A DNA stretch of 61,099 bases, counting the filler, from Pirum gemmata (Eukaryota): NCBI GenBank assembly GCA_002812295.1. It is 16 parts of 16 records of this genome, joined end to end, with 100 filler letters (N's around TTAATTAATTAA, not from the genome) between each part and the next. Parts side by side here need not be neighbours in the genome. Positions count along the whole stretch, not along the records: positions 7,578 to 11,293 come from PDIN01002089.1; 15 more parts are not named here. One strand, 5' to 3'. The notes below the pieces were generated by a model, which was not told where the DNA came from, made no database searches, and was given only the letters and a program-made list of their open reading frames with translations. Each line of letters opens with the position of its first letter. Within the stretch, counting starts at the first letter, position 1. The position numbers and the translations under genes are program-made. Below, one piece after another: positions 8,475-10,812 of the stretch.

Positions 8475-10812
8475 CTATAGCATTTGGCATTTCCCACCGT
8501 TGGTCATATATTCAATTGGTTCTGGTAAATACATTTTCATAACTACAGATATCAAAGCAAAAACACTGCGCCAAGCTTCTTCTGCTTCTGATGTCCATTT
8601 TTCTTTTAAAAAATCTTGTAAAAATTCAAACAACACATTACCAAAAATTAAAAACTGTCCTGTATTGCATCCTGTGTAAGAAAAAAAAAATGTAAATTAA
8701 ATAATGATAAATTAAATTATTGGTATTGTTATTGATTTCACCATATAGTTATACTAGTTGTCTTTTCTATAAAATAACAGCAAGGTTATAAAGATAAGTA
8801 CAAAAATGAATTGCAACCTAACAATTTAAAACATTATATATAATATATCAAGGCCACATCTAGACTCACATAATATTATAAACCCTTTATGTGTAAATAA
8901 TATTTTAAGGGTTAAAAATGTTAGGGTTAGGGGTAGGATTTGGGTTAATAAATACCGTATTTTCTATGACGAACAGATAAATCAGCTAACTTTGGTATCA
9001 ACTGTTGCAGATCGTCCATAACGGTAATACAATTAGTTATCATTGAGATAAACATCACGTATTGGGCATGAGGTGCATTATTTGCAAATAAAATTTTGAG
9101 GCCGGGGGCAGTTTTGAATAAACGAACATAATACTTTTCACCCAGACCTTCTGGTGAGTGCTCTTCTATCAAGTACTCCCATGTTGCGTGTATTTGTTTA
9201 CTAACTTGACCGGAGAATCTATTTTCATTGTGAATATATTATATTAAAATTAACATTACAAATTATTGATGGTTAAAATTTACATGTATATGAGTAATAC
9301 TTTTACTAACCGAACCCAAATTCCTTCATTATATTATTACTATAAATTGCTTTATCCCCTTTGAAAATAACATGTCTATGCTGTGAAATATGAAGCTATC
9401 TCCGATATAAATTAACCCCTAATTTGACCCTAACCCTAGCCCTAATCCCTAGCCCTAATAATCCTAACCCTAACCCCCAAACTGCCAAACCCTGACCCCC
9501 AAACCCTGACCCCCAAACCCTAACCCCCAAACCCGAACCCTAAAGGCTAAGGCTAAGGCTAAGCCTAACCCTTTTCTAATTAATAGATAAATAAATTTAA
9601 TATATATTATATATAATATTAAACATACCTTGGAAAAGAATTTAACTTCATCATGGACAATGCTTCCTTTTTGGCTTCAAAAAAAAGGTCTGATGATAAT
9701 TCAGTTTTTTGCATACCTTCTTTTATTTTCTGTACTTGAGGTTCGCTAAGGTTGACTTGTTTTTTACTCCGAAGTTTGATAAATGTGGCAGATATTTGTT
9801 TCGCCTTTTCCGATCTTTCTTCTTGGTTTGCTAATTCTTCATAATCATAAATTGCAGAAACGAATTCTAAATTTTCTTCGTTAAATTCGTGCTTTAAAAA
9901 TTTATTTAATAATTCAAATGTTTCTTGTGTAGAAAATAAAATCATAAACGGATCGTCCTGGTAACCTTAAGTGCGTAGGCAGTAGTACGTGTAATAGTAT
10001 TATATTATATATATATATTTCAAATAATTAATATATATAAGTATTTTTTAAAAAATATAAATTATGTATAATCACATATTAATTAAAAAAACAAATTACC
10101 TAAACCTCTCTAACTATTTAGAATTATATATGTAAAACAATGTACATTTAAATATTTTGTATAATATTATTATAATTATAATTAATTAATTTACCTTGTT
10201 TATCAATTGTTTGTAATTTATCTTCGTTGTGTTTATTCCATTTTTGAAGAAGCTCTTTTTTAGCACTCTTTCTATTTTTCAAAGTTTTAAGTGTCATTCT
10301 CTTTTTAGTCTTTGTTTTTGTGCCATTTTCGTTTTCGCTGTCGTCGCAACTCCTAATACCCGAGTCACTCATTGACTCTCCTGATAATATATACATTAAA
10401 ATATTATTATACATTAATATTTCTATTAAGAATATGAGGTGTGGTAATATCAATTAAATTACAGGTTTAATACATTCATGGGGCTTAGGGTATAAGTTAA
10501 TTAGGGATGTAATAATAGTAAGGGGTTCAGGGGTTAAGTGGTTATGGAGTTATAATGTAAAAGGTTAGGTAATGCATATGGTTTATTGTTAGTGGTTAGT
10601 GTTTTAGTGGTTAGGGTTTAGTATTTAGTCGTTTTAACGGTTAGTGATTAGTGGTTTCAGTGGTTAGTGGTTAGTGGTTAGTGGTTAGAAGCTATGAATT
10701 GTTAAATTTATCATAAATAATAATTACTTGAAGAAGAAATAATAGAACTTACAGACCGGTTTCTCGTATCAGGGGAATTAATAGATGTTCTTTTATCTGC
10801 AATTGTAGTCAT
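8475..10812 (-). CDS. RGS domain - globin fusion protein with C-terminal CaaX motif (about 355 aa, 5 exons)
   Basis: Manual splicing gives exons 10812-10728, 10380-10195, 9965-9629, 9218-8956 and 8671-8475, all GT-AG with matching phases (1068 nt). RGS motifs: FLKHEFNEENLEF, ISATFIK..SKKQVNLS, LFFEAKKEALSMMKLNSFPR|F. Globin motifs: GEKYYVRLFKTAPGLKILF, HAQ, LSVRHRKYG, WTSEAEEAW. Ends GGKCQML-stop. The first two exons are less certain than the last three. Confidence 0.88.

What the first reader, a model, noticed from the sequence alone, without database searches (positions are those of the whole stretch)
8475..10812. RGS-globin-CaaX fusion: a candidate membrane-anchored haem gas sensor that switches off G-alpha
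Seen in sequence: the separately listed RGS ORF and globin ORF are exons of one gene. The phase-2 splice 9629/9218 rebuilds the canonical RGS terminus SFPR|F and runs into globin helix A with almost no linker. A further exon (8671-8475, absent from the ORF track) supplies globin helices G and H and ends in CQML-stop. Established knowledge: the RGS G-alpha contact motifs (EEN, the Asn of [EQ]VN, the Arg of PRF) are retained. The globin has Pro C2, Phe CD1, proximal His F8 (RHRKYG) and a Tyr-B10/Gln-E7 distal pocket, as in flavohaemoglobin-type single-domain globins. CaaX with X=Leu is normally geranylgeranylated. Inference: a prenylated protein in which O2/NO/CO binding or haem redox state tunes GAP activity on heterotrimeric G proteins, i.e. 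a receptor-independent, globin-coupled input into G-protein signalling. Globin-coupled sensors with other outputs are known (bacterial GCS, Leishmania globin-adenylate cyclase, nematode 7TM-globin), but I do not recall a characterised RGS-globin.
Basis: partly seen in the sequence, partly recalled or inferred. Interest (0 to 1): 0.92.

Follow-up and report, generated by a model that had tools for sequence, protein, structure and literature searches.

The report
Haem globin welded to G-protein off-switch
This is a real spliced gene of a single-celled relative of animals that joins a G-protein off-switch (RGS) domain to a globin through one predicted shared helix and ends in a likely membrane-anchor signal; the same module recurs in distant protists and would let gas or haem state tune G-protein signalling without a receptor, which is untested.

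Summary
Five GT-AG exons give an open 355-aa RGS-globin protein ending CQML. Spliced contigs of two runs from two studies join the RGS exon to the globin exon, and one reads through CQML-stop. The public Pirum gemmata model has the same join but a tail the transcript does not support. The module is a family: three Pirum paralogues, plus Abeoforma, Leptophrys, Plasmodiophora, Paulinella and Chrysoparadoxa members. RGS Arg to globin Trp spacing is 13 residues in 36 of 36 modules (median identity 25%), and two AlphaFold models make the junction one helix. Against a canonical GAP: the RGS4 Asp163 contact is Asn here and Gly in 18 of 36. The architecture is not unrecorded: 'RGS//Globin' is a row label in a 2014 supplementary figure (PMC3971589), and this scan noted globin-RGS fusions earlier in foraminiferal DNA (unchecked notes). 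I found no paper discussing or testing it. Best reading: a membrane-tethered haem sensor that tunes G-alpha GAP activity (about 0.5). Main rival: G-alpha controls the globin (0.25).

The parts
10728..10812 (-). Exon 1 (ATG; Ser/Thr-rich N-terminus, residues 1-29)
10195..10380 (-). Exon 2 (residues 29-91)
   Evidence: X3 contig length fits exons 2-3 plus 62 nt of exon 1
10250..10324 (-). Basic stretch, residues 48-72 (11 Lys/Arg of 25), with a short Leu-Lys motif shared by the paralogues; possible second membrane signal (inferred)
9629..9965 (-). Exon 3: RGS domain (Glu121, Asn122, Asn162, Asn199, Arg203 across the splice)
   Evidence: Pfam PF00615 E 2.6e-19; RGS4 rmsd 1.8 A, Z 16.5
9161..9639 (-). 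Junction, residues 200-222 (end of exon 3 plus start of exon 4, intron 3 between): predicted single helix serving as RGS last helix and globin helix A
   Evidence: AlphaFold helix at model 110-132; 13-residue spacing in 36 of 36 modules; splice in two runs
8956..9218 (-). Exon 4: globin helices A-F (Trp216, Tyr233 B10, Pro241, Phe247 CD1, Gln255 E7, Met258 E10, His287 F8)
   Evidence: Pfam PF00042; best PDB match Hell's Gate globin I
8475..8671 (-). Exon 5: globin helices G-H, short tail, stop
   Evidence: Pfam profile 77-115; joint 8670/8955 in X2 and X3
8478..8489 (-). CQML, CaaX-type C-terminus
   Evidence: covered by X2 contig; CaaL/CaaI in P0002, P0164, P0165
7785..8047 (-). Near-identical second copy of exon 4 with flanks (one synonymous difference); likely an uncollapsed allele or partial duplicate; the public gene model splices into it
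   Evidence: the X2 transcript contig ends in exon 5 instead

Best explanation
The gene encodes one protein in which an RGS domain is fused to a globin by a predicted shared helix and which is likely prenylated, likely holds haem, and would pass gas-binding or redox changes at the haem to the G-alpha-binding face so as to tune GTP hydrolysis. Shown: one spliced transcript; both domains; invariant junction length; conserved haem-pocket residues; recurring C-terminal anchors. Predicted: residues 200-222 form one helix that starts at the RGS switch-contact residues Asn199/Arg203 and runs on as globin helix A. Inferred: the CaaL end (geranylgeranyl, from established prenyl rules, recalled) plus the basic N-terminus place it beside lipid-anchored G-alpha. 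Inferred: ligand exchange at the distal site moves helix E, with the family-specific Met258 (E10) as a possible internal ligand or gate; this shifts helix A and so the geometry or availability of the G-alpha contacts. Which gas, and which state is the active one, are unknown.
For: Transcript join in two studies. Spacing Arg203 to Trp216 is 13 residues in 36 of 36 modules at median 25% identity; indel-free 13-residue windows occur only here, in helices B and E and in one RGS helix (51 of 225 windows). One helix across the junction in two models whose queries are about 22% identical (identity). RGS4 and globin structural alignments overlap at residues 201-208. F8 His in 33, CD1 Phe in 36 and C2 Pro in 36 of 36 modules; the distal pair is Tyr/Gln in 15 or Phe/His in 12 of 36, two recognised ligand-binding pockets. 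E10 is Met in 29 of 33 RGS-coupled globins versus Lys in 71 of 114 others; the aligned Lys52(E10) is the switchable haem ligand of HGbRL (PMC4476040 passages). Cys at -4 in 12 of 31 family proteins versus 9 of 121 other hits, and 5 more end in a hydrophobic helix. Asn128-equivalent kept in 27 and Arg167-equivalent in 26 of 36.
Against: No activity was measured. The Asp163 position is Asp in only 5 of 36 modules (Gly 18, Asn 5), so GAP activity may be weak or absent. A rigid junction shows a fixed geometry, not allostery. The RGS contacts are degenerate in some members (Plasmodiophora and Paulinella rows), and F8 His is lost in 3 of 36. Helix A is distant from the haem in most globins (recalled). 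There is no reductase domain, so keeping the iron ferrous needs a partner. Both folds used the same alignment family, so they are not fully independent.
Confidence: 0.5

Rival explanations
1. Signal runs the other way: the RGS domain is a docking site for active G-alpha (effector-type, like non-catalytic RGS-homology domains), and G-alpha binding recruits or switches the globin's chemistry (NO dioxygenase, nitrite reductase or superoxide production) at the membrane.
For: Asp163 is lost in 31 of 36 modules while the fold and Asn128 stay. Tyr-B10/Gln-E7 is the pocket of HGbI and flavohaemoglobin-type globins, which are often NO-consuming enzymes (recalled). PMC3971589 notes that some RGS domains have lost GAP activity. 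A shared helix carries signals either way.
Against: Human RGS2 has Asn at the aligned position and is an active GAP (PMC7572916 passages). There is no reductase partner in the protein. The Phe/His pocket of 12 of 36 modules suits reversible O2 binding better than catalysis (recalled).
Confidence: 0.25
2. Two independent jobs in one chain: a constitutive membrane-bound GAP whose globin is a structural partner or a local O2/NO buffer, with no allosteric link.
For: RGS domains fuse to dozens of unrelated domains (supplement list). A helix shared at the time of fusion would stay indel-free for folding reasons alone. Membrane-anchored single globins with protective roles exist (globin X passage).
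Against: The module is kept as a unit, also in tandem repeats, across distant lineages. It carries its own E10 signature and two co-varying pockets.
Confidence: 0.2
3. The fusion is an assembly or gene-model artefact: two genes joined through telomere-like repeats in intron 3 of a fragmented assembly.
For: Short pieces, TTAGGG-type arrays in the introns and a duplicated exon 4. The DNA run left part of exon 4 and intron 3 uncovered (a hole proves nothing).
Against: Spliced join in two studies. Three named paralogues and about 30 homologous proteins have the same junction.
Confidence: 0.02

Closest known systems
'RGS//Globin' and 'Bactofilin//RGS//Globin' rows, de Mendoza et al. 2014 (PMC3971589), supplementary figures
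   Same: Same Pfam architecture; the survey included Pirum gemmata. I also recover the bactofilin form (P0025, P0026).
   Different: Only row labels: 'globin' occurs 0 times in the main text. No junction, anchor, pocket or function analysis in what I read. The species marks of the figure were not readable as text.
HGbRL of Methylacidiphilum infernorum (PDB 3wfw; PMC4476040)
   Same: HGbI-type globin (third-best profile hit, E 3.5e-34) fused to a domain whose homologue MglB is a GAP; putative sensor; E10 residue acts as haem ligand.
   Different: Bacterial; globin first; Roadblock/LC7 output for a small GTPase; site-swapped dimer; Lys rather than Met at E10; no lipid anchor described in the passages read.
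Globin-coupled sensors (HemAT, DosC, AfGcHK, GsGCS)
   Same: Globin joined to a signalling output; this is the proposed logic.
   Different: These have an N-terminal S-family globin and a C-terminal output. Here the globin is C-terminal, closer to F-family globins (Z 18.0 neuroglobin versus 12-13 for GCS domains) and linked through helix A, not helix H.
R4-type RGS proteins (RGS2, RGS3, RGS4, RGS16)
   Same: Best sequence and fold matches of the RGS half; Asn88, Asn128 and Arg167 equivalents kept.
   Different: Last helix continues into a globin; Asn at Asp163 (as in RGS2); C-terminal CaaX.
7TM-RGS receptors (plant RGS1 type)
   Same: A sensor acting on G-alpha through a GAP rather than a GEF (passages).
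   Different: The sensor here would be a cytosolic haem domain, not a transmembrane bundle.

Membership tests
RGS domain (PF00615) | Profile score above the curated cut-off and RGS fold | tested here: met
   70.2 bits versus 23.9; RGS4 1agr_H Z 16.5, rmsd 1.8 A, 112 residues
Canonical G-alpha GAP RGS | Asn88 and Asn128 (RGS4) contacts | tested here: met
   Asn122 and Asn162, by alignment to RGS3/RGS2/RGS16; contacts named in PMC8252600
Canonical G-alpha GAP RGS | Asp163 (RGS4) contact | tested here: not met
   Asn199 here, as in RGS2; Asp in 5 of 36 modules
Canonical G-alpha GAP RGS | Accelerates GTP hydrolysis by G-alpha | not testable with these tools
   Needs an assay; no G-alpha sequence was held and the complex predictor was not available
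3/3 globin, F-family (HGbI / flavohaemoglobin-type domain) | 3/3 fold with His F8, Phe CD1, Tyr B10, Gln E7 | tested here: met
   (3s1i TM 0.89 by target, rmsd 1.4 A)
3/3 globin, F-family | Binds haem and diatomic ligands | not testable with these tools
   Inferred from residues only
Flavohaemoglobin | C-terminal FAD/NAD reductase module | tested here: not met
   Protein ends 19 residues after residue 336 of helix H; transcript reads to the stop
Globin-coupled sensor (S family) | N-terminal globin, C-terminal output domain | tested here: not met
   Order is RGS then globin; definition from PMC7475203 passage
Globin-coupled sensor (S family) | S-family (protoglobin-type) globin domain | tested here: inconclusive
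   GCS domains rank lower (Z 12-13) than F-type globins (Z 15-18); no tree with named S-family globins was built
Globin-coupled sensor (S family) | Output activity depends on haem ligand | not testable with these tools
   Needs an assay
CaaX-prenylated protein | Cys four residues from the true C-terminus | tested here: met
   CQML-stop, in the X2 contig; kept in 3 of 4 closest homologues, P0006 ends CTL
CaaX-prenylated protein | Prenyl group attached | not testable with these tools
   Geranylgeranylation for X=Leu is recalled; Gln at a1 is not aliphatic

The most novel reading that the evidence does not exclude
An old, widespread protist module works as an intracellular gas receptor for heterotrimeric G proteins: haem ligation is passed along one shared helix straight to the G-alpha switch contacts, with paralogues tuned by Tyr/Gln or Phe/His pockets and a Met(E10) gate. 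This would be a third kind of input beside GPCRs and 7TM-RGS.
Probability: 0.4. Interest if true: 0.88.

Novelty: new variant of a known kind. Interest (0 to 1): 0.72.

Why it matters
If the coupling is real, O2, NO, CO or redox state reach heterotrimeric G proteins with no membrane receptor, in a relative of animals and in rhizarians and stramenopiles. The 246-residue core is small and predicted with high confidence, so the question can be tested directly with haem spectra and GAP assays. It would also add an N-terminal, helix-A route to the ways globins signal. Even without coupling, it defines an uncharacterised globin family and corrects a public gene model that drops the CaaX end.

Tried and rejected
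No whole genome is held for this window, so Pirum G-alpha genes could not be listed. No run was on record as RNA; X2 is guessed to be RNA and its contig is spliced. The 427-aa public model (P0001) was rejected as the true 3' end: it leaves exon 5 after residue 336 for the duplicate exon, whereas X2 and the paralogue tails follow exon 5. ESM Atlas gave no usable hit for P0002 (uninformative). The complex predictor was not available, so neither a haem-bound dimer nor a G-alpha complex was modelled. No solved chain among the listed rows matched both domains together; the syNOS row (Z 16.7, rmsd 5.6 A) was not followed up. Single origin of the module is not shown: FastTree put 33 of 33 RGS-coupled globins in one 38-row group (support 0.93, 147 rows). 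IQ-TREE on 77 of those rows put 37 of these 38 in a 99/97 branch together with 9 globins that lack RGS, with no bootstrap tree giving one clade (one search shows Cyt-b5, ion-channel or multi-globin architectures for the 9). No RGS-domain tree was built. A plasmid search found only lone globins (14 records). Paper searches with no relevant hit: 0 papers each; 1 unrelated; 15 of 72 listed, none on a prenylated globin by title. The weak VEFS-Box hit on exon 2 (below cut-off) was taken as a composition effect.

Full report
Observation. The window is a string of about 16 short pieces joined by N spacers; the gene lies within one piece, 7578-11293. Pfam finds RGS on exon 3 (E 2.6e-19) and Globin on exons 4 and 5, which cover complementary parts of the profile (3-75 and 77-115). 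The introns hold TTAGGG-type arrays, and exon 4 with its flanks is repeated at 8047-7785 with one synonymous difference, so an assembly artefact had to be excluded.

Transcript evidence. Three public runs were laid on 8380-9586. Contigs of X2 and X3, from two studies, skip intron 4 exactly and carry a loose end at the start of exon 4 that equals the last bases of the RGS exon (compare). X2 continues without a difference through CQML-stop to 8448; the X3 contig ends at 8592, before the stop. X1 holds intron 4 unspliced. X2 is only guessed to be RNA and X3 is untyped, but both contigs are spliced. Both carry one base change giving Lys for Glu217. A database protein named Pgem_evm1s5195, Pirum gemmata (Ichthyosporea), is identical through residue 336 and then runs into the duplicate exon, losing the CaaX end. 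The X2 contig and the tails of the paralogues favour the 355-residue form.

Family. A search of 1.84 billion representatives gave 2448 hits, of which the best 150 were listed. Among 30 proteins chosen as likely two-domain hits, 26 had both Pfam domains. Named members are Pirum P0006, P0164 and P0165, Abeoforma whisleri P0024 (RGS part truncated), Leptophrys vorax P0017, Plasmodiophora brassicae P0019, Paulinella micropora P0148 and Chrysoparadoxa australica P0020 and P0026; placing these in Rhizaria and stramenopiles is from recall. Others are unnamed. Tandem (RGS-globin)x2 and bactofilin-RGS-globin forms occur. The set is biased to the best hits of one query, and names were looked up for only 22 proteins plus those named in search outputs.

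Anatomy of the module. Among 36 modules from 30 proteins (90%-cluster near-copies P0152-P0160 left out; median identity 25%), the distance from the RGS Arg167-equivalent to the globin helix A Trp is 13 residues in all 36 (49 of 49 with near-copies). Only 51 of 225 13-residue windows of the alignment are indel-free, and they fall on this junction, helices B and E and one RGS helix. AlphaFold on residues 91-336 with 24 sequences gave pLDDT 89.6 and pTM 0.79, with one helix over residues 200-222. The Paulinella protein, about 22% identical, gave the same continuous helix (119-142). RGS4 aligns up to residue 208 and globins from 201-206 onward. So the last RGS helix is predicted to be globin helix A, and it begins at the switch-contact residues. 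The two folds share alignment rows and are predictions.

Haem site. His F8 is kept in 33 of 36 modules, Phe CD1 and Pro C2 in 36 of 36; B10/E7 is Tyr/Gln in 15 (this protein) and Phe/His in 12. The best solved matches are Hell's Gate globin I and HGbRL. E10 is Met in 29 of 33 RGS-coupled globins against Lys in 71 of 114 other globin domains held. It aligns to the Lys52(E10) that binds the haem in closed HGbRL (PMC4476040, passages read). A Met gate is my inference.

G-alpha face. PMC8252600 (one passage) names Asn88, Asn128 and Asp163 of RGS4 as the critical contacts. Here they are Asn122, Asn162 and Asn199; RGS2 also has Asn at the last and is an active GAP (PMC7572916, passages). Across the 36 modules that position is Gly 18, Asn 5, Asp 5, while Asn128 is kept in 27 and Arg167 in 26 (some modules are truncated). 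This is the main evidence against a plain GAP and for an effector-type reading.

Membrane anchor. Cys stands fourth from the end in 12 of 31 family proteins against 9 of 121 other hits (Fisher p 6e-5, inflated by kinship; the public P0001 model counts as negative). Five more family members end in a hydrophobic 19-residue segment. Two kinds of anchor point to selection for membrane tethering. Prenylation itself is inferred.

Origin. FastTree grouped all 33 RGS-coupled globins with 5 other rows (support 0.93); two of the five proteins carry an RGS elsewhere or by Pfam (P0041, P0042), one starts with an RGS tail (P0123) and one is a short fragment. IQ-TREE on a 77-row subset nested 9 non-RGS globins among them and did not give one clade. 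One origin with later loss is allowed, not shown.

Prior record. De Mendoza 2014 (PMC3971589) lists 'RGS//Globin' and 'Bactofilin//RGS//Globin' among its architecture labels (supplement search; file 3 part 2 read; file 1 was not searchable and the figure's species marks are not held), but its main text never says globin. A 2020 globin review has no 'RGS' (PMC7475203, passages). Searches returned no paper, and 33, 57 and 65 (listings only) nothing on this fusion; subscription papers are not covered. Two earlier notes of this scan describe globin-RGS fusions in foraminifera as a family seen only there. I did not test those sequences; my named hits show an RGS-globin module outside foraminifera, and whether it is the same family is open.

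Verdict. The gene and its architecture are real (about 0.97). The best mechanism is a membrane-tethered haem sensor that tunes G-alpha GAP activity through the shared helix (0.5). Rivals are G-alpha control of globin chemistry (0.25) and uncoupled domains (0.2). It works like a globin-coupled sensor but is not a member of that family by domain order. The architecture has been listed before but I found no analysis of it: new variant of a known kind, interest 0.72. The complex predictor was not available, so the fit of G-alpha beside the globin is untested.

Noticed in passing
window 7590-8330: Near-identical copy of exon 4 and its intron flanks behind a TTAGGG array (8246-8364) and a single N at 8140; likely an uncollapsed allele; it misled the public gene model.
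   Followed up: partly
window 9178: Both spliced contigs differ from both genomic copies here (Glu217 read as Lys); allele, strain difference or assembly error.
   Followed up: partly
window, all pieces: The window is a concatenation of about 3.6-4.4 kb pieces with N-TTAATTAATTAA-N spacers, so neighbouring genes are not true neighbours. TTAGGG-type repeats are frequent inside pieces and introns.
   Followed up: partly
window 34984-37134 (-): Single-ORF ABCG-type half transporter (ABC_tran plus ABC2_membrane).
   Followed up: partly
window 58795-60216 (-): Single-ORF CLN3/battenin homologue (E 8.9e-63).
   Followed up: partly
window 28136-30237 (+): Exons with Ser/Thr repeats and a PAN domain, followed by two ORFs that look like a glycoside hydrolase 16 glucanase by a recalled motif; no Pfam hit on the separate exons.
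   Followed up: no
window 5662-6330 (-): 222-aa Cys-rich ORF with a likely signal peptide and an internal repeat; no Pfam hit at E up to 1.
   Followed up: no
P0155 (cluster of P0013): A 118-aa member is filed under the beetle Zophobas morio on a 10.9 kb contig; it may come from a protist in the sample (inference).
   Followed up: no
P0063, P0083, P0029, P0100, P0114: Unnamed multi-domain globins fused to cytochrome b5 and/or ion-channel domains; other possible globin-coupled signalling proteins.
   Followed up: no
P0025, P0026: Bactofilin-RGS-globin variant, one from Chrysoparadoxa; matches a row label in the 2014 supplement.
   Followed up: partly
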